From: a virus
Length of the DNA stretch: 16,572 bases
Direction: 5' to 3' (one strand)
Virus record (IMG/VR): IMGVR_UViG_3300013426_000031
The notes under the pieces are model-generated. The model worked only from the letters and a program-made list of their open reading frames with translations, had not been told where the DNA came from and did not search any database. Each line of letters begins with the position of its first letter. The first letter of the stretch is position 1. Below are positions 6,492 to 16,572 of this stretch, in pieces. The position numbers and the translations under genes are program-made.

Positions 6492-6722
6492 TTACCTCTC
6501 AATCGTTTCATAACCTTCAACATCTACAGTTGCCATATCGCCGATGTCAAATTCCGCATCTTCGGGGACATTGTAATCGTTTTTTGCTTTCTCAATAAAA
6601 TCTTCAATAGCCCAACCATATGCGGACCAATTGTCAACCCTACCACAATCTAATGCCTGAAGCAATAAACTATCCGCTAATAAATCTGTCAACTCATCTT
6701 TAGGTACAAGACAATAGGTCAT
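6492..6722 (-). CDS. Hypothetical acidic 76-aa protein
   Basis: The ATG at 6722 has AGGAGG 8 nt upstream. Confidence 0.6.
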   Translation of the reverse strand: MTYCLVPKDELTDLLADSLLLQALDCGRVDNWSAYGWAIEDFIEKAKNDYNVPEDAEFDIGDMATVDVEGYETIER

Positions 6723-6850
6723 TCTTCTTCCTCCTTATCCTTCTTCTTATGGAAAGGCCAAATAGGAAGATTAGCATCGGCGCGGTAATTCGCCCACTGA
6801 AGAAAACCGCACAAGCCAATAGCAATTACAAGAATAAAAATAGGGTTCAT
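6719..6850 (-). CDS. 43-aa small membrane protein (MNPIFILVIAIGLCGFLQWANYRADANLPIWPFHKKKDKEEEE)
   Basis: It is not in the ORF track. The ATG at 6850 shares an ATGA overlap with the stop of the MetK-like gene. GGAGAG lies upstream. Its stop TGA shares an ATGA overlap with the next start. Confidence 0.45.
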   Translation of the reverse strand: MNPIFILVIAIGLCGFLQWANYRADANLPIWPFHKKKDKEEEE

Positions 6851-7953
6851 CTTAAACTCTCCTTTATTTCATCTACTTTATCAAGTCGTTCCCAAGGACT
6901 ATTACACTCCGGTCTGCCGAATTGCCCAAAACAAGCATACGGAAGATACTGAGTTTCGCGCAAATCAAGATTATTGATAATAGCTTTACCATTATAATTA
7001 AATGTAATGTCCGCGATTTCTTTAAGTTTTTCTACGGATACTTCTGGATTAATTGGATTAAGATTAATCTCAAAAGGCTTATCCCATTGCGCAGTATAAG
7101 CCAACTGAACAGTCATAGCATCACATGCACCTGCAGCGACAAAATTCTTAGCAATATAGCGTGCCATATAAGTGCCATAGCGCCCACAATAATTAATGCT
7201 CTTACCATAGCCGTTTACGCCCATCGGGCAATAAGAACCATAAGCATTTTCTACCGCCTTGATGCCGGACACACCAAAAGTATCGGGAATATCAGATAGG
7301 GGATTAACATAGAATCGGCAATTCTTATCCACTTCATATCCAAGAGTAGCAATATTGCAAATGTTAGTAATGTCTGGGATAATATCCTGTGGGTCTTTTA
7401 CATCTTTGTATCTAATACTATATACAATACTATCAATACACTTGAATTTACCGTCTTCGTATCGCGCACTTACTTGGCATCTACCGTAAGGTAATGCCCA
7501 ATATAGCTCTTGCTTCTGCATTTTACTAAATGTAATTACTGAAATATTTTGGGCAGTAATTTGCGCAATAGGCATAAAATCAGTAGTCTCATTACAAGCA
7601 TAACCATATGCCGGTCCATATTCCCCACTACCAATATCTTCGACAAACCAATTTACATCGGTTCTAATGTTGTTGATAAATATACAAGTATTACAGTTAA
7701 AACCAGCTACATCATTATTATATCCAATAAAACGTAATGTTTCTTTTGCAATTTCTTCATAAGGAATAGTCCTATTTATCTGTCCCACTACCCCAGATAA
7801 AATAACTGTATTAGAGAAGATACTACAATGAATATTAATTAATGCATCGCAATCAAATTGTAAAATATAATCAGTAATACTTTCTACTATTTGGTCGCAT
7901 ACTTTATTGTATTCTCCAGAGAAACTACTTGAACAAGTATAATAGTTATTCAT
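6847..7953 (-). CDS. Divergent S-adenosylmethionine synthetase (MetK/MAT) homolog, 368 aa, with substituted catalytic motifs (possible pseudoenzyme)
   Basis: I aligned it by eye to E. coli MetK across all three domains:
- TCSSSFSGEYNKVCDQIVESITDYIL against [26 protein letters not shown];
- LRFIGY against VREIGY;
- GSGEYGPAYGYACNETTDFMP against [21 protein letters not shown];
- YEDGKFKCIDSIVYS against YDDGKIVGIDAVVLS;
- YMARYIAKNFVAAG against AARYVAKNIVAAG;
- FGQFGRPE against YGHFGREH. Confidence 0.72.
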   Translation of the reverse strand: MNNYYTCSSSFSGEYNKVCDQIVESITDYILQFDCDALINIHCSIFSNTVILSGVVGQINRTIPYEEIAKETLRFIGYNNDVAGFNCNTCIFINNIRTDVNWFVEDIGSGEYGPAYGYACNETTDFMPIAQITAQNISVITFSKMQKQELYWALPYGRCQVSARYEDGKFKCIDSIVYSIRYKDVKDPQDIIPDITNICNIATLGYEVDKNCRFYVNPLSDIPDTFGVSGIKAVENAYGSYCPMGVNGYGKSINYCGRYGTYMARYIAKNFVAAGACDAMTVQLAYTAQWDKPFEINLNPINPEVSVEKLKEIADITFNYNGKAIINNLDLRETQYLPYACFGQFGRPECNSPWERLDKVDEIKESLR

Positions 7954-7954
7954 T

Positions 7955-8398
7955 TTATTCCTCTCTTTTAACTACTTCATCTAATTCAACTATACAAGCT
8001 TTTGCAAAATATTCCCAATTTGAATAATTTTTATCATTCCAATCATAATATTTTAATGCTGTATGCGCTGAACATCTTTCTTGACTATAAAATGTACTTC
8101 CATCCATTTCAATAGGAAAATAATAATTATCTTTATCTCCATAAGGGGTTCTAATAATTATATGTTTATATAAAGCTTTACCTTCTTTATCACATCTATT
8201 AACTGTATAAGTACAATGATTAATATAATCTTCAACCATTGGATTAGTTAAGTCTTTTTTACCAAAATATTCTTCTGCTATTTCCTTTAAAATAGAACTA
8301 ATTAAAAATTGCTGATTCTCTTTATTTCTTTTATTACTAATGAATTCTTTAATTAATTCATCTTTAGGATTATAAAATTTATATTTTAAATAAGTCAT
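7955..8398 (-). CDS. Hypothetical 147-aa protein; very AT-rich gene
   Basis: The ATG at 8398 is the first gene after the class II promoter. Its stop lies 1 nt before the MetK-like start. Confidence 0.6.
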   Translation of the reverse strand: MTYLKYKFYNPKDELIKEFISNKRNKENQQFLISSILKEIAEEYFGKKDLTNPMVEDYINHCTYTVNRCDKEGKALYKHIIIRTPYGDKDNYYFPIEMDGSTFYSQERCSAHTALKYYDWNDKNYSNWEYFAKACIVELDEVVKREE

Positions 8399-8437
8399 AT
8401 TTCTTTTATATATTTTCTTTCTTATTTATTTTATATA

Positions 8438-8470
8438 TAAATTATAACAAAAATTTTTTCTTTTTTCAAA
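8438..8470 (-). promoter_or_regulatory. Class II sigma70/sigmaA-type promoter: -35 TTGAAA (8469..8464), 17-nt spacer, extended -10 TGTTATAAT (8449..8441)
   Basis: Read on the minus strand: TTGAAAaaagaaaaaatttttgTTATAAT. It matches the consensus and resembles the site at 3611-3645. Confidence 0.6.
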
Positions 8471-8480
8471 TAATTATTGA

Positions 8481-8511
8481 AAGAATAAAACGCAAAGCGT
8501 TTTATTCTTTC
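8481..8511 (-). terminator. Stem-loop terminator, likely bidirectional, ending the unit 10920->8502
   Basis: A perfect 11-bp stem (gaataaaacgc / gcgttttattc) closes a 3-nt loop, with A/T tracts on both sides. Confidence 0.55.
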
Positions 8512-10934: not shown

Positions 10935-10985
10935 CTATTCTTTATATATATATTATATAATATTTTTATATAAAAATAAATAAAG
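10935..10985 (-). promoter_or_regulatory. Class I conserved promoter-like motif (copy 4)
   Basis: ctattctttatatatatattatataatatttttatataaaaataaataaag matches the other class I copies. Confidence 0.55.
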
Positions 10986-11010
10986 CCAGTAGAGAATTAG
11001 TCTACTGACT
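10965..11010 (-). terminator. Rho-independent terminator ending the unit 14096->11011
   Basis: The hairpin stems are agccagtaga and tctactgact, with one mismatch, around loop aattag. TTATTTATTTTT follows on the minus strand. It lies directly 3' of the stop at 11011. Confidence 0.6.
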
Positions 11011-11496
11011 TTAAGTAATAGGTTTATAAACTCCTTTAGGAAGTGTAATAATTATATCATCATCTTCTAATGTTTTAAAAGTAAAGTAAGAGCGCCATCC
11101 TTTATATTTCGGATATGTAATACGCTTTACATTAGGTACTTCACCTTCACGGACCACACGTACAGTAATATAGTTTTTATTTATATCATATGTTTTAATT
11201 TCGCCAGTTTCAGTAAGACAAATGAGACGGTTCTCATCTCCCCAACGTACAAAAGCATTATCTTCAATAGCTTCTAATTTATATTCATATACTACTTCGG
11301 TTTCCATGTCTTCTATATCAGAGAAAGCATAGATTAATCCAGTAGATATAATAAGACATACACATGCGCACATTTCAAACAAACCAAGAAATTTAAAGAA
11401 CCATCCAATTTGCGCGGACAGTGTATCCGGTTCTTCATAAATAGATATAATAATAAAAATAACGGCGAGAATAAAAGCTAAGATAAACCAAAACAT
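11011..11496 (-). CDS. Membrane protein, 161 aa, two N-terminal TM helices
   Basis: The ATG at 11496 has GGAGGA 8 nt upstream and shares a TAATG overlap with the upstream stop. Hydrophobic segments FWFILAFILAVIFIIISI and FLGLFEMCACVCLIISTGLIYAF. Confidence 0.7.
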   Translation of the reverse strand: MFWFILAFILAVIFIIISIYEEPDTLSAQIGWFFKFLGLFEMCACVCLIISTGLIYAFSDIEDMETEVVYEYKLEAIEDNAFVRWGDENRLICLTETGEIKTYDINKNYITVRVVREGEVPNVKRITYPKYKGWRSYFTFKTLEDDDIIITLPKGVYKPIT

Positions 11497-11696
11497 TATC
11501 TCATCCTCCGTAGACCCATATGTTGAGCGAATGGCTCGTTTTCTTTATAATTAAATCTTACATCATAAAAATTATCGTGTAGACCAATAGTAGAGAAACT
11601 ATATACTTCCGCGCTAATACGTTCAAATGTAAATGCGGGGACAAGATTTGTATTAATGCTAATCAGGCGACCATCAATAGTAATAATATATTCCAT
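11496..11696 (-). CDS. Hypothetical 66-aa protein
   Basis: The ATG at 11696 has GGAGG 9 nt upstream and shares a TAATG overlap with the upstream stop. Confidence 0.55.
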   Translation of the reverse strand: MEYIITIDGRLISINTNLVPAFTFERISAEVYSFSTIGLHDNFYDVRFNYKENEPFAQHMGLRRMR

Positions 11697-11929
11697 TAAA
11701 TTTTACCTCCACAATTCATACAATAAATTTTATTATCTACAATAAGAACTTGTTCATTGCGCAAAGCAGAACCACATCTTGTGCAATAAGGCGGATTAGA
11801 GCAGAAGAGCTTGCAAGCAGGGTCTTCGGCATTAATAGCTAAGCCACTAAACATAAGGCATTTGCCAATTTCTTTAGATAAATTATTTGGCAATTTGGCG
11901 TACCCGCATCGTCCGCATTTATTTACCAC
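11696..11929 (-). CDS. Small Cys-rich 77-aa protein with four CxxC pairs (predicted zinc ribbon); GTG start
   Basis: CGRCG ... CTRCG ... CMNCG, plus further Cys residues. The GTG at 11929 has AGGAGA 7 nt upstream. Confidence 0.6.
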   Translation of the reverse strand: MVNKCGRCGYAKLPNNLSKEIGKCLMFSGLAINAEDPACKLFCSNPPYCTRCGSALRNEQVLIVDNKIYCMNCGGKI

Positions 11930-12159
11930 ATTACATTCTCCTGCATAGCATTAAGCGCCTCTTCACTTACTTCAAGACATCCATCTGGCGCAAATACATC
12001 AAGAAATACACTTTCAATTTCATCGAATTCCTTAAGAATTTTTCTCATAGCAAGAGCAAACTTTTCATCATCTTTTTCATCGCCATTTACATATACAAGG
12101 CCGGTATCAGTGCGCACCTTACCACTCATATGCCATGCAACTTTATATCTAAGATACAT
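11923..12159 (-). CDS. Hypothetical acidic 78-aa protein
   Basis: The ATG at 12159 has GGAGGA 5 nt upstream. Confidence 0.6.
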   Translation of the reverse strand: MYLRYKVAWHMSGKVRTDTGLVYVNGDEKDDEKFALAMRKILKEFDEIESVFLDVFAPDGCLEVSEEALNAMQENVMW

Positions 12160-12161
12160 AA

Positions 12162-12449
12162 TTAGTCCTCCAAAAAATTATTTTCATAGATTTTACTGAA
12201 TCCAAGAGCGCCTTCATGAAGAGAGTATGCTTCAAGGGACTTATGGCAAAGAAAAGCATATTCTTTCCAATTTTCAATAACATATTTTCCAGTAGGAACG
12301 GGAGCACACATACAAAGAGCGTTGAACGTATGTACCGCATCTTCTTGCGCACATGATAAAATGAATTCTTCAGCATCATTGCGCGTTTTAAAAGAGTACA
12401 TTCCATAAATATCATAAGCATCACTATCAATTACGGTATAAATTTTCAT
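12162..12449 (-). CDS. Paralog family member 6 of 6 (95 aa)
   Basis: MKIYTVIDSDAYDIYGMYSFKTRNDAEEFILSCAQED... shares the N-terminal core with ORFs 12452-13911. GAGGA lies 7 nt upstream. It ends in NFLED, like member 5. Confidence 0.7.
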   Translation of the reverse strand: MKIYTVIDSDAYDIYGMYSFKTRNDAEEFILSCAQEDAVHTFNALCMCAPVPTGKYVIENWKEYAFLCHKSLEAYSLHEGALGFSKIYENNFLED

Positions 12450-12451
12450 AA

Positions 12452-12727
12452 TTAATCCTCTAAATAGTTAATTTCTTTAATATAAAAATTAAATCCGCCC
12501 AAATATAAACAGATACATTCGTTATTAAGGTTTTCTTTATGCCATAAGCCACGAAGTAAATCTATATATTCTTCAAGAGTATCGGCATCTTCAAGTTTAT
12601 TAATGCCATAATTGCAGTCTCCAAAGGCTTCTTCTTCCGCAATAGAAAGAATGAGTTCTTCGGCAGACGCGCGACTATCACAGCAAATCATATCATTATT
12701 AACAGTATTCCAAACAATATATTTCAT
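12452..12727 (-). CDS. Paralog family member 5 of 6 (91 aa)
   Basis: MKYIVWNTVNNDMICCDSRASAEELILSIAEEE... GGAGG lies 9 nt upstream. It ends in NYLED. Confidence 0.7.
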   Translation of the reverse strand: MKYIVWNTVNNDMICCDSRASAEELILSIAEEEAFGDCNYGINKLEDADTLEEYIDLLRGLWHKENLNNECICLYLGGFNFYIKEINYLED

Positions 12728-13008
12728 TAATATACCTCCAGCTCTTCAATAAAATAATGTCCGCCTTTAAGCCAAAGACCAAAGCCATAATTTGTTTGGC
12801 AATTTACTTCTGGATAAAAATTTCTAATTCCATTAATCCACTCATCGTATTCATCATTATTAAAATTCATATAAACAAATGTTTCATAGAGGTCAGCTTG
12901 TGCCAAAGAAAGAATATACTCTTCAGCATTGGCTCTGGTTTCACAAAGACAGATGATTCTTTCGCTTTCTTCGGCATAATCAATTTCAAGAATTACATAT
13001 TTTTTCAT
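12727..13008 (-). CDS. Paralog family member 4 of 6 (93 aa)
   Basis: MKKYVILEIDYAEESERIICLCETRANAEEYILSLAQAD... It shares a TAATG overlap with the upstream gene and ends in ELEVY, like member 1. Confidence 0.7.
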   Translation of the reverse strand: MKKYVILEIDYAEESERIICLCETRANAEEYILSLAQADLYETFVYMNFNNDEYDEWINGIRNFYPEVNCQTNYGFGLWLKGGHYFIEELEVY

Positions 13009-13337
13009 TAAGTATACTCCTTCACACTATGATATCCATACCATTCTCCGTGTTTAATAAGTACATAGCCATAAAGAGAGATAGGTTTGTGAAACTTATT
13101 AAAGTCTTCTACTTCAGGGATAAGGTCTTCGAGATAAGATTTCATAGGGTCAGAACACAAATGGTCAATACCAACAGCGTCATACTGTTCAGGCTCATAG
13201 AGGTAATCATCAAGGAAAAGGTCATAAGCCTCTTCTTCTACACAAGAAAGAATAAGTTCTTGCGCATCGGCTGCTGTTTCACAAAAGGCTTCAATATTTA
13301 CATCATCATCATAGTGAGTATAAACAACATATCTCAT
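13008..13337 (-). CDS. Paralog family member 3 of 6 (109 aa)
   Basis: MRYVVYTHYDDDVNIEAFCETAADAQELILSCVEEE... GGAGA lies 7 nt upstream, and it shares an ATGA overlap with the upstream gene. It ends in EYT. Confidence 0.7.
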   Translation of the reverse strand: MRYVVYTHYDDDVNIEAFCETAADAQELILSCVEEEAYDLFLDDYLYEPEQYDAVGIDHLCSDPMKSYLEDLIPEVEDFNKFHKPISLYGYVLIKHGEWYGYHSVKEYT

Positions 13338-13603
13338 GAATATTCTCCAATCTTACGAATATAATAACAAAGACTTTCTGTGTAATAGTACCAAGCATCA
13401 AGATTTTTAATGCGTTTAGGTCCATATTTTTTTCTAATATGACTATAAATTCTATTAAAATGTTTAATACCATCGGCCATAGCTTTATTATATTCTTTTT
13501 CTTCTACAATGGAAAGAATTAATTCTTGGGCATCTTCTTTGGTGGCGCAAATACCAATTGGTTTATGATTTTCAGCATCGTCATAAATAACAAGATATTT
13601 CAT
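13334..13603 (-). CDS. Paralog family member 2 of 6 (89 aa)
   Basis: MKYLVIYDDAENHKPIGICATKEDAQELILSIVEEKEY... GGAGG lies upstream. It ends in EYS. Confidence 0.7.
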   Translation of the reverse strand: MKYLVIYDDAENHKPIGICATKEDAQELILSIVEEKEYNKAMADGIKHFNRIYSHIRKKYGPKRIKNLDAWYYYTESLCYYIRKIGEYS

Positions 13604-13605
13604 AA

Positions 13606-13911
13606 TTAGTAAACCTCCACCTCAGCAATGTAATACTCTCTACTATCCATAGTAAGGTCATAGCCTTCGAGGGTTTTATAACCTTCGTCATTAAGCATAC
13701 TATTATGATATTCCATAGCACTACGTCGGCATTTTAAATATTCTTCAATAGAAGAATAATCTCTATATTGCACACATCTATAAAGATAATCTTCATATTC
13801 AGTTTCTTCCATGATAGTAAGGATATATTCTTCGGCATCCGCGAGTGTATCACATGTGGTTTTAATTTGCGTGAAATCGTAGTCTTGATAATAAACTACG
13901 TAGCGTTTCAT
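13606..13911 (-). CDS. Paralog family member 1 of 6 (101 aa)
   Basis: MKRYVVYYQDYDFTQIKTTCDTLADAEEYILTIMEETEY... AGGAGG lies 8 nt upstream. It ends in EVEVY. Confidence 0.7.
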   Translation of the reverse strand: MKRYVVYYQDYDFTQIKTTCDTLADAEEYILTIMEETEYEDYLYRCVQYRDYSSIEEYLKCRRSAMEYHNSMLNDEGYKTLEGYDLTMDSREYYIAEVEVY

Positions 13912-14096
13912 TCTTCATCCTCCTCTAATACTTTATTAACAAAATAGTTAATAATTCTATTGCCTTTGGGGTCCGTGCCTGTATCTACGTAAAGGAGGAT
14001 TTCTTTAGGGTCTTCAGGCATCATCGCAGGAGGGTAGTCGCGCATAAATTGTGCCATTTTCTCAATAGTTTTAATAAGGACTTGAGTTTTTTCCAT
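13908..14096 (-). CDS. Hypothetical 62-aa protein, first gene of the unit that contains the paralog array
   Basis: The ATG at 14096 has GAGGGG upstream and lies immediately after a class I cassette. Its stop shares an ATGA overlap with paralog 1. Confidence 0.55.
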   Translation of the reverse strand: MEKTQVLIKTIEKMAQFMRDYPPAMMPEDPKEILLYVDTGTDPKGNRIINYFVNKVLEEDEE

Positions 14097-14109
14097 TCTT
14101 TATTTCCCC

Positions 14110-14156
14110 TCTCTTTTATATATATATTATATTATATTATTTATAAAAAATAAAAG
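14110..14156 (-). promoter_or_regulatory. Class I conserved promoter-like motif (copy 5, slightly diverged)
   Basis: ctcttttatatatatattatattatattatttataaaaaataaaagg matches the other class I copies. Confidence 0.5.
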
Positions 14157-14180
14157 GAGTTAGATTTTTCTAACTCCTTT
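14135..14180 (-). terminator. Rho-independent terminator ending the unit that contains the RNA ligase
   Basis: A perfect 10-bp stem (aggagttaga / tctaactcct) closes a tttt loop, and TTTTATTTTTTAT follows on the minus strand. It lies 3' of the stop at 14185. Confidence 0.65.
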
Positions 14181-14184
14181 CGAT

Positions 14185-14701: not shown

Positions 14702-16039
14702 TTAAAGCTCCTCTGCGATAGTTTCATCAAGCGGATTTACATCAAGAACGGCAATGTTCTTGAGAAGTTTGTAGGAAAAGTTTTTATGCTTATATGCAGT
14801 AAAAGAAGGCTTATCAACGAGACGAATTACAACACCTTCGCGCACATGACGAGGGTCGATAAGTTCAGGACCATCATAATATTGTTCCGCCTTATGGAGT
14901 ACCCATTCACCTGCAGAAATGGTATCATCTTCATCGCATGCCGGATGCTCGGGGATATAACCGCGCCATTCAACAGGTACAAATTTTACGCCCATTTGCT
15001 CACAACGATAGCGCACATAAGAAGGCGGGTATTCAATAGTATAACCGCTTTCATCGGTATAAGTCATACGATATACCCAGAAGTCATTCTTGGGGCCATT
15101 TACTCCAGTAGGATCACAGCCATAAGAGAAAGTAGTGGTATCGCCGTATTGCTTAATGAATTCTTTATCGCCGGTTTTCTTATTAGATACAGTACCCATA
15201 ATCGGCACACCATCATCAGTATATCCACAGATTTCCATAAAGATTTCTTCGTTTTTATGAAGTTTACCCTTAATTGCTTCAAAGGCATGACGGCGAAACT
15301 CATTAGAGCCATAGAAACCGCCGTCCCAGTCAGTAATCAAAGTGCGTCGAGTGCCATTAATATAGTCATATTCATAAATGGGTTTGCCGGAACGCTTAAA
15401 GAGACGGTCTAAAAGAGAACGGTGATAGCCCTTTAAGACGGGGAAATAACCAATACGATGGCTTGTACCGTCGAGTTTACGCGTAATTTCAATAAGATCA
15501 CCCGGTTTAAAAGCATTAAGATTGTATGCCAACTGGGCCGTGTCCACGTGTTCTGTAAAAAGAGGAGCAATAGGATCTTTGTGCTTGCGCGTCTTGCTTA
15601 CATTAGGGCCATTGGTCTTTGTTTTGTTGGTGCGGGGAATATACTTTTGGCAAATAGGATGACCATTAAATTCGCTTACAAGGTCGCCTACTTTGAGAGT
15701 ATTAATATCACCAAAAGAAGAAAGACAAGAAAGCGGAAGATACGTGCCGTCAGACGGCTCACCGCGCAAACGAATAGTGCCTACGTTGCGCTTGTCGGCA
15801 TCAAGGTAGCCGGTATCCTTTTCGCCCTTTTGGTTCTTACGGCATAGATGATTTATATCACAGAAAACGGCATCAAGCTGAAGTCCAGTGGGAAAATAAA
15901 TGCCGATATCGCCTACCTTAACATCAAGAGAAACGCAAGTATCATTGCCGAAGAAAGTAGCAATTTGAAGGCGGTCGGCGTTGCTATGCGGGCGCAGATC
16001 TTTTACTTTAACAATATAACCACAATGATTAATATCCAT
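14702..16039 (-). CDS. ATP-dependent RNA ligase-like nucleotidyltransferase (Rnl family), 445 aa, with a ~180-aa N-terminal extension
   Basis: The covalent nucleotidyltransferase motifs are present:
- motif I: ITRKLDGTS (putative adenylylated Lys);
- motif III-like: EIFMEICGY;
- motif IV: EGVVIR;
- motif V: YKHKN.
The ATG at 16039 has AAAGGAA upstream. Confidence 0.62.
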   Translation of the reverse strand: MDINHCGYIVKVKDLRPHSNADRLQIATFFGNDTCVSLDVKVGDIGIYFPTGLQLDAVFCDINHLCRKNQKGEKDTGYLDADKRNVGTIRLRGEPSDGTYLPLSCLSSFGDINTLKVGDLVSEFNGHPICQKYIPRTNKTKTNGPNVSKTRKHKDPIAPLFTEHVDTAQLAYNLNAFKPGDLIEITRKLDGTSHRIGYFPVLKGYHRSLLDRLFKRSGKPIYEYDYINGTRRTLITDWDGGFYGSNEFRRHAFEAIKGKLHKNEEIFMEICGYTDDGVPIMGTVSNKKTGDKEFIKQYGDTTTFSYGCDPTGVNGPKNDFWVYRMTYTDESGYTIEYPPSYVRYRCEQMGVKFVPVEWRGYIPEHPACDEDDTISAGEWVLHKAEQYYDGPELIDPRHVREGVVIRLVDKPSFTAYKHKNFSYKLLKNIAVLDVNPLDETIAEEL

Positions 16040-16099
16040 TTATATCAATTCCTTTCAAGTCGAGAGGCAATAAATGCCTCCCGATGGTTGTTTTAAGTG

Positions 16100-16249
16100 T
16101 TAGTTAATAGGAACAAAGAAGGCAATGCTTTCGGTAATCCAGCGCATTTTTTCGGTGTCGTAGTAAAGAACACGGAAATTATTACCTTCGTCTCGGAAGA
16201 TTTGAGCAACGTCATATGTCTTTCCGTCTACGTTATTTTTCATTTTCAT
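16100..16249 (-). CDS. Candidate 49-aa protein (MKMKNNVDGKTYDVAQIFRDEGNNFRVLYYDTEKMRWITESIAFFVPIN)
   Basis: It is not in the ORF track. The ATG at 16249 has GGAGGAA 6 nt upstream and overlaps the 3' end of the upstream gene by 17 nt. Confidence 0.35.
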   Translation of the reverse strand: MKMKNNVDGKTYDVAQIFRDEGNNFRVLYYDTEKMRWITESIAFFVPIN

Positions 16250-16547
16250 TGTTATTCCTCCATAAGATATCAAATGTGTTTCGGCCCCATGTATAGTTTG
16301 TCGTGAAGCCTTGCGCTTCCAATAGATTAGAAAGTGTTTTTACTGTGTAGTTGGTTGAACTTTCGCGGTCTTCGTCGGCAAGCGCAAATGAATAGATATA
16401 GTTGCCGTTTTTGGCGCTTTCTAGAAGAGCAGGTGTAATTTCATCGATAATTTGACGCGCACGTTCAGTTGCTTTATTTTGTCTATCTTTTTCGGTCAAT
16501 GCGGTCAAATTTCTTGCTTGTTCATAAAGAGATATATTTAAACTCAT
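16233..16547 (-). CDS. Hypothetical 104-aa protein
   Basis: The ORF has an ATG at 16547 but no clear SD. It is in the same orientation as the operon. Confidence 0.5.
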   Translation of the reverse strand: MSLNISLYEQARNLTALTEKDRQNKATERARQIIDEITPALLESAKNGNYIYSFALADEDRESSTNYTVKTLSNLLEAQGFTTNYTWGRNTFDILWRNNNENEK

Positions 16548-16572
16548 TTTGTAAGTGGAGACTTTTAGTCTC

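What the first reader, a model, noticed from the sequence alone, without database searches (positions are those of the whole stretch)
12162..13911. Tandem array of six diverged paralogous small acidic proteins, each with its own RBS, in one operon
Six consecutive minus-strand genes of 89-109 aa share a conserved ~35-aa N-terminal core. Its consensus is MK-YVV-Y, a variable ~8-12 residues, C-x-T-x-x-DAEE-ILS-x-x-EE-EY: a beta-strand-like start followed by an acidic helix. The C-terminal halves have diverged almost completely. The C-terminal endings still pair up as EVEVY with ELEVY (members 1 and 4), NYLED with NFLED (members 5 and 6), and EYS with EYT (members 2 and 3). This points to successive duplications followed by diversification.

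The nucleotide level keeps a recognisable core as well. The minus-strand segment agaaagaat..ttctt..gcat, encoding AEE.ILS, recurs in all six. Every member has its own AGGAG-type SD, and most have ATGA or TAATG junctions with their neighbours. All the proteins are strongly acidic and Tyr-rich.

Rapidly diversifying tandem paralog families inside a phage transcription unit are typical of arms-race loci, for example anti-defence or host-takeover factors, decoys, or acidic DNA-mimic-like proteins. I cannot assign this family to any known domain from sequence alone. The flanking 78-aa acidic protein (11923-12159) may be a more distant member. This is the strongest candidate in the window for an undescribed system.
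Basis: seen in the sequence. Interest (0 to 1): 0.85.

Follow-up and report, generated by a model that had tools for sequence, protein, structure and literature searches.

The report
Shuffling array of unknown small phage proteins
A large uncultivated gut phage carries six side-by-side diverged copies of a small protein with no known relatives or fold; related phages carry two to eight copies and swap halves between them, which fits host-interaction or counter-defence genes, but no function has been tested.

Summary

- The C-terminal ~20 residues are conserved.
- m2 is basic (pI 8.45), and acidity is normal for this window.
- The 78-aa neighbour is not a member.
- The "paired" C-terminal endings overlap the next gene's Shine-Dalgarno.

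Related phages carry 2, 4, 5, 6, 7 or 8 members at the same site. More distant phages carry 1-2. Near-identical phages differ by whole-gene indels and cassette replacement. Chimeric genes are joined at the conserved DAEE.ILS core.

Orthologs are under purifying selection (dN/dS 0.06-0.40, like the flanks), so diversity comes from old duplication plus recombination, not fast point mutation.

Function is unknown. My best inference is a set of early-expressed binding proteins with differing specificities against host factors, in a neighbourhood with a gp5.9-like RecBCD inhibitor, an RNA ligase and a SAM synthetase.

The parts
13606..13911 (-). m1, 101 aa, subtype A family member
   Evidence: ORF. 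63.3 bits against the distant-only HMM. AF2 pLDDT 96.0 with b-b-a-a-a-b topology. Orthologs 84% identical in L001 and L002.
13334..13603 (-). m2, 89 aa, subtype B family member; the only basic one (pI 8.45)
   Evidence: ORF. 50.1 bits. pI. Among the loci compared, this subtype is found only in the window's own lineage (L008-L013) and has no ortholog in L001, L014 or L015.
13008..13337 (-). m3, 109 aa, divergent subtype C family member
   Evidence: ORF. 49.5 bits. Only 41-43% identical to the C-type genes of relatives whose flanks are 77-90% identical.
12727..13008 (-). m4, 93 aa, subtype D family member
   Evidence: ORF. 71.5 bits. 76% identical to the L001/L002 D genes. The acidic stripe is partly degenerate (N21, Q31, A32).
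12452..12727 (-). m5, 91 aa, subtype E family member; the subtype most widely found in metagenomes. An intact E gene is in the window and five compared arrays, and E-derived chimeras are in L134 and L136.
   Evidence: ORF. 62.6 bits. AF2 pLDDT 93.9. Most hits are 91-aa proteins. Chimeras.
12162..12449 (-). m6, 95 aa, subtype F family member (the 'MKIYTV' clade)
   Evidence: ORF. 49.5 bits. 83% identical to L001.7/L002.8. It is the outlier among the six in pairwise blastp.
12342..12392 (-). 51-nt conserved core, copy in m6. It encodes the b2-a1 junction (T/S)RxDAEE.ILS.aEE. The other five copies are at 12632-12682, 12895-12945, 13233-13283, 13499-13549 and 13804-13854.
   Evidence: the repeat finder family D1: six copies, 63-75% identical to the reference. 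Codon view. This is the junction of all observed chimeras.
13908..14096 (-). 62-aa gene, first gene of the transcription unit. It overlaps m1 by ATGA. It is not a family member, but its own family recurs within ~1 kb of family members in four phage lineages.
   Evidence: -0.7 bits against the family HMM. Homologues in L125, L129, L130 and L008.
14152..14181 (-). Terminator-like hairpin (13-bp stem plus T-run) ending the upstream unit. An AT-rich stretch with TATAAT repeats (14097-14151) follows, before the 62-aa gene.
11923..12159 (-). 78-aa gene (f78). It always follows the array in relatives, is in the same operon, and is not a family member.
   Evidence: 0.0-0.2 bits against family HMMs. 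Orthologs 55-80% identical in L001, L005, L014 and L015.
11011..11929 (-). Rest of the operon: Zn-ribbon 77 aa (11696-11929), 66 aa (11496-11696) and 161 aa with an N-terminal hydrophobic segment (11011-11496).
   Evidence: ORFs. Weak Zn_Ribbon/LIM matches. Conserved downstream of the array in relatives.
10981..11013 (-). Terminator-like hairpin (13-bp stem plus T-run) closing the transcription unit

Best explanation
WHAT IT IS
This is a lineage-specific tandem expansion of an uncharacterised family of small (about 85-110 aa), single-domain, cytoplasmic phage proteins. It lies in one translationally coupled transcription unit, in a region that looks like the early or accessory part of a ~184-kb uncultivated phage. 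At least one related sample is from the human gut. The host is probably a Firmicute.

FOLD
Every member has the same predicted fold. An N-terminal b-hairpin and a C-terminal strand form a three-stranded sheet. A long helix a1 and two shorter helices pack against it.

CONSERVED AND VARIABLE PARTS
The conserved elements are the sheet, the start of a1 ((T/S)RxDAEE.ILS.aEE.Y) and the a3-b3 end (T..GY.L....Y.I.E). The hairpin loop, the second half of a1, a2 and the a2-a3 loop vary in sequence and length.

HOW THE ARRAY EVOLVES (shown)
- The duplications are old.
- Each subtype is kept under purifying selection.
- Homologous recombination at the conserved core between paralogs and between phages deletes, inserts, replaces and recombines cassettes.
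- The result is 2-8 members per phage and chimeric N-half/C-half genes.

WHAT IT DOES (inferred)
The proteins are stoichiometric binders of host proteins, acting in counter-defence or host takeover. The variable helical surface would set target specificity. The near-invariant acidic stripe on a1 (D21, E24, E31, E32 with S28 and Y35) would be a shared contact or scaffold element. The array would then be a toolbox covering variants of a polymorphic host target.
For: SHOWN
- Paralogy of all six.
- Shared high-confidence fold in two paralogs.
- No match in any library searched.
- The family has 143 clusters at 50% identity among 1.84 billion representatives. Nearly all are 85-110 aa, and those whose context was fetched lie on phage-like contigs.
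- Distant phages have 1-2 copies. This clade has 2, 4, 5, 6, 7 or 8 copies at the same site between the RNA ligase and the 161-165-aa gene.
- L001 and L002 are 98-100% identical in the flanks. They differ by one whole-gene indel, and their E cassettes are only 55-80% identical in nucleotides.
- dS along that one array ranges from 0.02 to 0.84.
- Chimeras: F2::E, A'::D' and E::X. D and D' share N-halves (88-91%) but not C-halves (47%). All are joined at the core.
- dN/dS is 0.06-0.40, against 0.06-0.25 in the flanks.
- Terminator-like hairpins bracket the unit. Junctions are overlapping or 2 nt apart, each with its own Shine-Dalgarno.

INFERRED
- An exposed conserved acidic stripe, from helical-wheel geometry. 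The acidic moment points to 164 degrees and the hydrophobic moment to 23 degrees.
- A counter-defence neighbourhood: gp5.9-like RecBCD inhibitor at 28.2 bits against a cut-off of 24.5, SAM synthetase and RNA ligase. A gp5.9-like gene also lies near a distant member in L132.
- Precedents: small acidic phage proteins that inhibit defence nucleases by direct binding (PMC11322646), and copy-number change at anti-defence loci (PMC9391042, PMC13096335).
Against: - There is no experimental or homology-based functional evidence of any kind.
- Gene-wide dN/dS shows no positive selection, so the classic arms-race signature is missing. Site-level tests were not done.
- Guilt by association is weak in a region where most genes are unknown.
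- No expression data exist, so calling the region 'early' is itself a guess from gene content.
- The stripe's exposure was inferred from a helical wheel, not measured on coordinates. It is degenerate in m4 (N21, Q31, A32).
- The host is unknown. No prophage or bacterial copies were found, but the pattern used covers only a minority of the family.
- Conserved exposed residues could equally serve oligomerisation or binding to a conserved phage partner.
Confidence: 0.45

Rival explanations
1. Acidic DNA-mimic proteins (Ocr, ArdA, gp5.9 or AcrIIA4-like). They would occupy the DNA-binding clefts of restriction, RecBCD-like or CRISPR nucleases, and each paralog would mimic DNA for a different enzyme.
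For: - Five of six have pI 4.1-4.7.
- Near-invariant acidic residues are spaced along one face of helix a1.
- A recognised DNA-mimic family (gp5.9-like) is encoded 5 kb away.
Against: - m2 is basic (pI 8.45), and net charge is only -0.08 to -0.17 per residue.
- That is the same as many unrelated proteins in this window, and less than the 56-aa and gp5.9-like genes (-0.21 and -0.18).
- No Pfam gp5.9 match and no PDB sequence-profile hit to any known mimic.
- The conserved acidic residues are few. Most of the acidic residues are not conserved.
Confidence: 0.1
2. Proteins with a phage-internal role, for example adaptors or regulators of the phage's own replication, transcription timing or assembly. 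They would act with a conserved phage partner such as the 62-aa protein or the 78-aa/Zn-ribbon proteins of the same operon. The paralogs would be functionally redundant or sub-functionalised.
For: - The 62-aa gene family recurs within ~1 kb of family members in four divergent lineages.
- f78 and the Zn-ribbon gene always follow the array in this clade.
- A near-invariant surface stripe fits a conserved partner better than a diversifying host target.
- Purifying selection.
Against: - A copy number of 1-8, with free gain, loss and chimerism between near-identical phages, is atypical for core machinery.
- f78 is absent next to distant members.
- The 62-aa co-occurrence may simply be conserved synteny among related phages.
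Confidence: 0.2
3. An immunity- or antitoxin-like array (a 'polyimmunity' locus). Each paralog would neutralise a different toxin effector, either host abortive-infection or toxin-antitoxin toxins, or toxins of competing phages, by direct binding.
For: - Tandem arrays of diverged small immunity paralogs are the hallmark of polymorphic-toxin immunity loci (PMC3482391, found).
- The cassette turnover and modular recombination seen here resemble those loci.
- Size and single-domain binder architecture fit.
Against: - No toxin domain was detected by Pfam in most neighbouring genes of the window or reported in the Pfam annotations of related loci.
- No match to known immunity families. The one SUKH_5 hit is at E 0.17 in 1 of 45 members.
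- No HicB-like similarity of note (Foldseek E 1.4).
- In practice this overlaps with the counter-defence reading rather than excluding it.
Confidence: 0.15
4. Functionless or decaying duplicates (selfish or neutral gene copies) with no selected role.
For: Copy number is variable and some relatives manage with two members.
Against: - All six ORFs are intact with their own Shine-Dalgarno sequences.
- dN/dS is 0.06-0.40.
- Each subtype is conserved across several phages and many metagenomes.
- AF2 models are highly confident, implying strong co-variation and conservation signal.
Confidence: 0.03

Closest known systems
Segmental amplification ('genomic accordion') of phage anti-defence genes, e.g. 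T4 tifA against toxIN (PMC9391042) and SegB-driven amplification in T6 (PMC13096335)
   Same: Tandem multiplication of a small phage gene. Copy number differs between closely related phages. Recombination is the driving process. The proposed benefit is against host immunity.
   Different: Those amplifications are recent, with near-identical repeats selected for dosage. Here the copies are 25-35% identical, each is an old, conserved subtype under purifying selection, and variation comes from cassette exchange and chimerism. No link to a defence system has been shown.
Small acidic phage inhibitors of defence nucleases, e.g. enterococcal phage TifA/Orf65 against type IV restriction enzymes (PMC11322646), T7 Ocr and T7 gp5.9
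   Same: Small, mostly acidic proteins of a lytic phage with no known fold relatives. Stoichiometric binding is the plausible mode of action.
   Different: No sequence match in deposited phages. No Pfam gp5.9 match. One member is basic. Those inhibitors are single-copy, not arrays.
Host-takeover and terminal-repeat small-gene clusters of large Firmicutes phages (SPO1 gp37-60 module; 'Tre' genes of Twort-like phages) - from my own knowledge, not tested here
   Same: Runs of many small genes with strong Shine-Dalgarno sequences on one strand in a large phage of a Gram-positive host, some forming paralog groups. The best (non-significant) structural neighbours are uncharacterised proteins of Enterococcus phage PEf771 and Brochothrix phage A9, which I recall, without checking, as SPO1-like phages.
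   Different: No detectable homology. The BFVD hits are at E 0.04-0.05. Expression timing and the position relative to the genome ends are unknown here.
Polyimmunity loci of polymorphic toxin systems (PMC3482391)
   Same: Tandem arrays of diverged small paralogous binders with modular recombination and rapid cassette turnover.
   Different: No associated toxin gene and no match to known immunity families. This is a phage locus, not a bacterial one.
Pfam DUF7336 (PF24024)
   Same: Weak similarity over the N-terminal b-b-a segment in 4 of 45 members (best E 6e-4). m2 gives E 0.053.
   Different: All scores are below the gathering cut-off (13.8 against 25 bits for m2). Only 2 of 94 members of the broader set match. 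It is itself a domain of unknown function with no literature.

Membership tests
The family itself (unnamed; 'DAEE.ILS' small phage proteins) | A significant score against a profile built from independent, distant members, over the full length | tested here: met
   All six score 49.5-71.5 bits. Shuffles reach at most 13.2 bits. f78, the 62-aa gene and the 66-aa gene score about 0 bits.
The family itself (unnamed; 'DAEE.ILS' small phage proteins) | Shared b1-b2-a1-a2-a3-b3 fold | tested here: met
   m5 pLDDT 93.9 and m1 pLDDT 96.0 have identical topology. The other four members were not modelled.
Pfam DUF7336 (PF24024) | Score at or above the Pfam gathering threshold (25 bits) | tested here: not met
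   m2 scores 13.8 bits. Matches in 4 of 45 members (best E 6e-4) and 2 of 94 members all appear to be below the cut-off.
T7 gp5.9 RecBCD inhibitor (PF25708) | Pfam match | tested here: not met
   No hit for any array member. The separate 76-aa gene at 6492-6722 does match (28.2 bits against a cut-off of 24.5).
DNA-mimic anti-restriction/anti-CRISPR proteins (Ocr, ArdA, AcrIIA4, AcrIIC5 type) | Exceptionally high negative charge density in all members | tested here: not met
   Net charge is -0.08 to -0.17 per residue in five members and +0.02 in m2 (pI 8.45). This is within the range of unrelated proteins in the window.
DNA-mimic anti-restriction/anti-CRISPR proteins (Ocr, ArdA, AcrIIA4, AcrIIC5 type) | Structural similarity to a known mimic, or a surface that mimics B-DNA | tested here: not met
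Known defence-system components (PADLOC-DB) | HMM match | tested here: not met
   No hit at E <= 1 for the six members or the two neighbours tested. Dedicated anti-defence databases (dbAPIS, Acr databases) were not available.
Recent segmental amplification ('genomic accordion') | Near-identical tandem repeats at the nucleotide level | tested here: not met
   Paralogs are 18-35% identical in protein. Even the best-conserved 51-nt core is only 53-71% identical between copies.
Polymorphic-toxin polyimmunity locus | An adjacent toxin gene, or a match to known immunity families | tested here: not met
   No toxin domains in the neighbours scanned. The only immunity-family hit is SUKH_5 at E 0.17 in 1 of 45 members.
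HicB-like antitoxin N-terminal domain | Fold or sequence match | tested here: not met
   Foldseek E 1.4 and TM 0.21. No PDB sequence-profile hit. DUF1902 matches in 1 of 94 members at E 0.031.
Counter-defence / host-takeover proteins (functional class) | A demonstrated effect on a host defence or host process | not testable with these tools
   Only context and evolutionary pattern are available.

The most novel reading that the evidence does not exclude
This is a previously unseen protein fold that phages use as a modular inhibitor scaffold. A universal acidic 'warhead' or docking stripe on helix a1 is combined with interchangeable N-terminal hairpin and C-terminal helical specificity modules. 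The conserved 51-nt core acts as a built-in recombination joint, so phage populations continually reshuffle half-genes and whole cassettes into new combinations. That would be a combinatorial counter-defence library, analogous to polymorphic toxin/immunity cassettes but on the phage side.
Probability: 0.2. Interest if true: 0.75.

Novelty: new variant of a known kind. Interest (0 to 1): 0.5.

Why it matters
Most small accessory genes of uncultivated gut phages are unannotated, and known anti-defence proteins came mainly from model phages. This is a well-delimited family with confident structure models and no match in the libraries searched. It has a clear evolutionary signature: a lineage-specific expansion to 2-8 copies, cassette swapping between near-identical phages, and half-gene chimeras joined at a conserved core. 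It sits beside a gp5.9-like RecBCD inhibitor, an RNA ligase and a SAM synthetase.

That makes it a concrete and cheap candidate set for anti-defence or host-takeover screens, since the genes are about 300 nt each and the subtypes are defined. It is also a natural example of modular protein evolution by recombination at an internal conserved joint.

If the proteins bind host defence proteins, the array composition could predict host range in a group of large gut phages. If they turn out to serve a phage-internal role, the finding reduces to a new DUF with unusual copy-number dynamics.

Tried and rejected
1. Megablast of the whole window, and tblastn of m5 and of a distant member, against 50,697 deposited phages found no match. 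No annotated relative exists there.
2. Pfam, PHROGs and PADLOC scans of the six proteins, and Pfam and PHROGs scans of 45 and 94 family members, gave only scattered sub-threshold hits.
3. PDB sequence-profile searches with two alignments found nothing below E 0.18.
5. The search for related loci with family alignments failed because no stretch was conserved enough.
6. The first degenerate DNA pattern (RADAEE[FY]ILS) found nothing. A relaxed pattern gave 101 genome hits. None contained a family ORF by HMM, and the seven inspected by eye were chance matches such as GMP synthase. No bacterial or prophage copies were found, so there is no host assignment. The pattern covers only a minority of the family.
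7. f78 as a distant member: rejected (0.0-0.2 bits).
8. A conserved partnership between a member and a 78/79-aa gene in distant phages: rejected. L016's 79-aa gene is unrelated to f78.
9. Gene-wide positive selection: not found.
10. Recent gene conversion keeping the core identical: rejected. The core is only 62% identical on average.
11. Literature searches for DUF7336 and for tandem paralog arrays of small early phage proteins found nothing that describes this family.
The second word-indexed search returned only 'hypothetical protein'.
Full report
OBSERVATION

- m1: 13606-13911, 101 aa
- m2: 13334-13603, 89 aa
- m3: 13008-13337, 109 aa
- m4: 12727-13008, 93 aa
- m5: 12452-12727, 91 aa
- m6: 12162-12449, 95 aa

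A MAFFT alignment shows 26-35% identity of m2-m6 to m1. Pairwise blastp, scaled to a database of 1e8 residues, gives E values of 9e-5 to 0.13 for most pairs, and m6 is the outlier.

The decisive test is independent of the window. I built an HMM from 71 relatives that are less than 40% identical to any array member. It scores the six at 49.5-71.5 bits. 500 composition-matched shuffles of each protein never exceed 13.2 bits. The similarity is therefore homology, not composition.

The repeat finder recovers the nucleotide core on its own as six 51-nt copies, one per gene, 63-75% identical to the reference copy. Mean pairwise identity is 62%, which fits protein-level constraint and not recent gene conversion.

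Each gene has a GGAG-type Shine-Dalgarno. Neighbouring genes overlap by ATGA or TAATG, or are 2 nt apart.

Strong terminator-like hairpins with 13-bp stems lie at 14181-14152 and 11013-10981 on the minus strand. They bracket an 11-gene unit: a 62-aa gene, m1-m6, the 78-aa gene, a Zn-ribbon gene, a 66-aa gene and a 161-aa gene.

1. The C-terminal halves are not almost completely diverged. Across 94 family members the last ~20 residues are conserved (T68 0.65, G71 0.73, L74 0.88, Y81 0.62, I83 0.83, E85 0.74 in m5 numbering). Only the hairpin loop, the second half of helix a1, a2 and the a2-a3 loop are variable and indel-rich.
2. m2 is basic (pI 8.45). pI 4-5 is the norm for this window's proteins. 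Tyr is enriched only in m1-m4.
3. The 78-aa neighbour scores 0.0-0.2 bits against family HMMs and is not a member.
4. The 'paired' endings fall on the codons that are also the Shine-Dalgarno of the next gene: GAG GTG GAG GTT, CTG GAG GTA, TTA GAG GAT, TTG GAG GAC, GGA GAA TAT and AAG GAG TAT. They also resemble the family-wide C-terminal consensus seen in distant single-copy members. They say little about duplication order.

WHAT THE PROTEINS ARE

None of the six, and none of 45 or 94 family members scanned individually, reaches a curated threshold in Pfam. PHROGs, PADLOC and two PDB sequence-profile searches give nothing either. The only recurring whisper is DUF7336, in 4 of 45 members (best E 6e-4). 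m2 scores 13.8 bits against a cut-off of 25. DUF7336 is itself of unknown function and is not mentioned in the literature library.

AlphaFold2 with family alignments gives very confident models. m5 has pLDDT 93.9 and pTM 0.78. m1 has pLDDT 96.0 and pTM 0.80. Both have the same topology, b1-b2-a1-a2-a3-b3.

No structure library searched has a significant match:
- Foldseek against BFVD: best E 0.04 and TM 0.57, to uncharacterised proteins of Enterococcus phage PEf771 and Brochothrix phage A9.
- Foldseek against PDB with the m1 model: best E 0.73.
- AFDB could not be searched.

The strongest conservation is (T/S)RxDAEE.ILS.aEE.Y at the b2-a1 junction: D21 0.91, A22 0.98, E24 0.98, L27 0.90, E31 0.88, E32 0.83, Y/F35 0.84. 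On a helical wheel the conserved acidic residues, together with S28 and Y35, occupy a 120-220 degree arc. The acidic moment points to 164 degrees and the hydrophobic moment to 23 degrees. I read this as an exposed, conserved acidic stripe. That is an inference, because I could not inspect coordinates. E24 is invariant in all six window proteins. The stripe is partly degenerate in m4.

DISTRIBUTION

A word-indexed search found 183 proteins, all unnamed and without Pfam domains, on contigs up to 174-211 kb. The exhaustive HMMER scan of 1.84 billion representatives found 143 clusters at 50% identity with E <= 1e-3. Almost all are 85-110 aa, and a few are two-domain tandem fusions.

tblastn against 50,697 deposited phage genomes finds nothing. 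A degenerate-pattern scan of 185,579 species-representative genomes gave only chance hits. The pattern covers a minority of the family, so absence from bacteria is suggested, not proven.

The window comes from, or is nearly identical to, a 184-kb contig. Related contigs are listed in IMG/VR, and one sample is Hadza human gut. The adjacent RNA ligase is closest, at 42-44% identity, to those of 160-169-kb Bacillus siphoviruses. With the strong Shine-Dalgarno usage, this points to a Firmicutes host (inference).

EVOLUTION OF THE ARRAY

In every relative the array sits at the same place, downstream of the RNA ligase and upstream of the 76-79-aa gene. Membership differs from phage to phage:
- 2 members: L134, L136
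- 4 members: L005
- 5 members: L015
- 6 members: window
- 7 members: L001, L003, L014
- 8 members: L002

More distant phages carry one copy (L016, L122, L129, L130, L132) or two (L125). The large arrays are therefore a lineage-specific expansion.

About ten subtypes (A, A', B, C, D, D', E, F, F2-F4) are each shared across phages, so the duplications are old.

Between the window and L001 the flanking genes are 77-90% identical. By contrast m3 has only a 42% counterpart, m5 a 57% one, and m2 none. L001 and L002 are 98-100% identical in the flanks. They differ by a clean ~324-nt whole-gene indel at the head of the array. Their E cassettes are only 55-80% identical at nucleotide level, right next to a 100% identical gene. 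dS along that one array runs from 0.02 to 0.84, which is a recombination mosaic.

Chimeric genes exist:
- P0056/L134.2 has an F2 N-half (73%) and an E C-half (71%; next best type 33%).
- P0144 has an A' N-half (85%) and a D' C-half (95%).
- P0089/L136.2 has an E N-half (93%) and a novel C-half.
- D and D' share N-halves (88-91%) but not C-halves (47%).

In each case the junction is at the conserved core. In L015 the order is C, D', F2, F4, E. In L014 it is A', C, D' and so on. The F2::E and A'::D' fusions are what deletions between the cores of paralogs in one array would produce.

Gene-wide dN/dS for orthologs is 0.06-0.40, indistinguishable from the flanks at 0.06-0.25. Each subtype is a maintained, functional protein. 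The diversity is not produced by fast point substitution.

FUNCTION (INFERRED)

No homology-based or experimental evidence bears on function. The context suggests an accessory counter-defence or host-takeover region. It holds long same-strand runs of small unknown genes, plus:
- an RNA ligase (phrog_968, 8e-59)
- a SAM synthetase
- a gp5.9-like RecBCD inhibitor above Pfam's threshold (28.2 against 24.5 bits)

A distant member in L132 also lies near a gp5.9-like gene, a Thg1-like gene and an RNase T gene.

Several features together are most simply explained by a set of stoichiometric binders with different specificities for a polymorphic host target:
- a small stable single-domain fold
- conserved scaffold with a variable helical surface
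- several diverged subtypes kept under purifying selection
- presence/absence polymorphism and cassette exchange between near-identical phages

I put this at about 0.45 overall. The evolutionary mechanism is well supported (about 0.8). The host-target function is much less so. Precedents include enterococcal phage TifA, a small acidic inhibitor of type IV restriction enzymes with no fold relatives (PMC11322646), and copy-number plasticity at anti-defence loci in T-even phages (PMC9391042, PMC13096335).

RIVALS

- DNA mimicry (0.1) has nothing specific in its favour. One member is basic, the acidity is at background level, and no fold match exists.
- A phage-internal role with a conserved partner (0.2) is favoured by the near-invariant stripe and by the recurrence of the 62-aa gene family near members in four lineages. 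It fits poorly with free gain, loss and chimerism.
- An immunity- or antitoxin-like array (0.15) is really a special case of counter-defence. It lacks any associated toxin.
- Neutral junk (0.03) is contradicted by purifying selection.

NOVELTY AND VERDICT

The kind of thing is familiar: multi-copy, plastic accessory small-gene loci in large phages. This instance differs in three ways from recent 'accordion' amplifications and from anti-defence islands made of unrelated genes:
- The family and its fold have no described relatives in the libraries searched.
- The copies are ancient, individually conserved subtypes.
- The array evolves by modular recombination at an internal conserved joint.

I rate it a new variant of a known kind, with interest 0.5. 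It is a well-defined candidate family worth testing, but not yet a demonstrated system.

Noticed in passing
window 6492-6722 (-): A 76-aa acidic protein (pI 4.05) matches Pfam Phage_T7_Gp5_9, the RecBCD inhibitor family, above the gathering cut-off (28.2 against 24.5 bits). A gp5.9-like gene also lies near a distant family member in L132 and L133.
   Followed up: partly
window 6847-7953 (-): A phage-encoded full-length S-adenosylmethionine synthetase with all three MetK domains (phrog_1569). It is conserved in all related loci. In L005 the gene is called as a 707-aa product, so it may be fused to something else there.
   Followed up: no
window 14702-16039 (-): A 445-aa RNA ligase with a weak PHA02142 OB-fold N-terminus. 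The closest deposited relatives are 160-169-kb Bacillus siphoviruses at 42-44% identity. No tRNA genes are in the window.
   Followed up: partly
window 12159-13911, gene junctions: The last 4-6 codons of each array gene double as the Shine-Dalgarno of the next gene (E-V-E-V-Y = GAGGTGGAGGTTTAC; L-E-D = TTAGAGGAT or TTGGAGGAC). The C-terminal peptide and the downstream RBS are therefore under joint constraint.
   Followed up: partly
window 13908-14096 (-); L125 12668-12874; L129 1963-2160; L130 8297-8494: The 62-aa gene that heads the operon belongs to its own small family (motif ..PP......L....D...D..G.R...YF). That family recurs within ~1 kb of 'DAEE.ILS' members in four divergent phage lineages. 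This could be synteny or a functional link.
   Followed up: partly
L136 and L137 4001-4270 and 371-568; window stop codons: In a relative, the source's gene calls read through an in-frame TAG in 2 of 18 genes; the product on record has Q where TAG lies in the 4001-4270 gene. In the window TAG ends only 1 of 35 genes (TAA 24, TGA 10). This could be a gene-caller artefact or a hint of TAG recoding in this phage group.
   Followed up: no
L017 2-454; P0123, P0125, P0256; P0209: Fusion architectures of the family domain. There is a partial ORF whose N-terminal part looked GNAT-like to me by eye (not scanned), followed by a family-like domain (E 2e-9). There are also two-domain tandem fusions of 175-190 aa, and one member with an N-terminal Cys-rich, Zn-ribbon-like extension.
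   Followed up: no
L132 4397-6892 and downstream: A 188-kb phage contig encodes an 831-aa protein with a major-vault-protein shoulder domain (PF11978) immediately upstream of a family member. Genes for cREC_REC, gp5.9-like, metallophosphatase, Thg1-like and RNase T proteins follow.
   Followed up: no
window 11696-11929 (-): A 77-aa Cys-rich (11.7% Cys) basic protein with weak Zn-ribbon/LIM matches. It starts with GTG, overlaps f78, and is conserved after the array in all close relatives. Unrelated small Zn-ribbon-like proteins sit next to distant members (L016 59 aa, L125 67 aa).
   Followed up: no
window 7501-8500: GC content dips to 0.253 against about 0.34 elsewhere. GC skew changes sign near 15000-16572, where plus-strand ORFs appear (15848-16306), suggesting a divergent transcription boundary.
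   Followed up: no
L005, L006, L134, L136 upstream of the RNA ligase: A 91-aa chorismate mutase (PF01817 CM_2) is encoded just upstream of the RNA ligase in the L005-like phages, but was not seen in the window.
   Followed up: no
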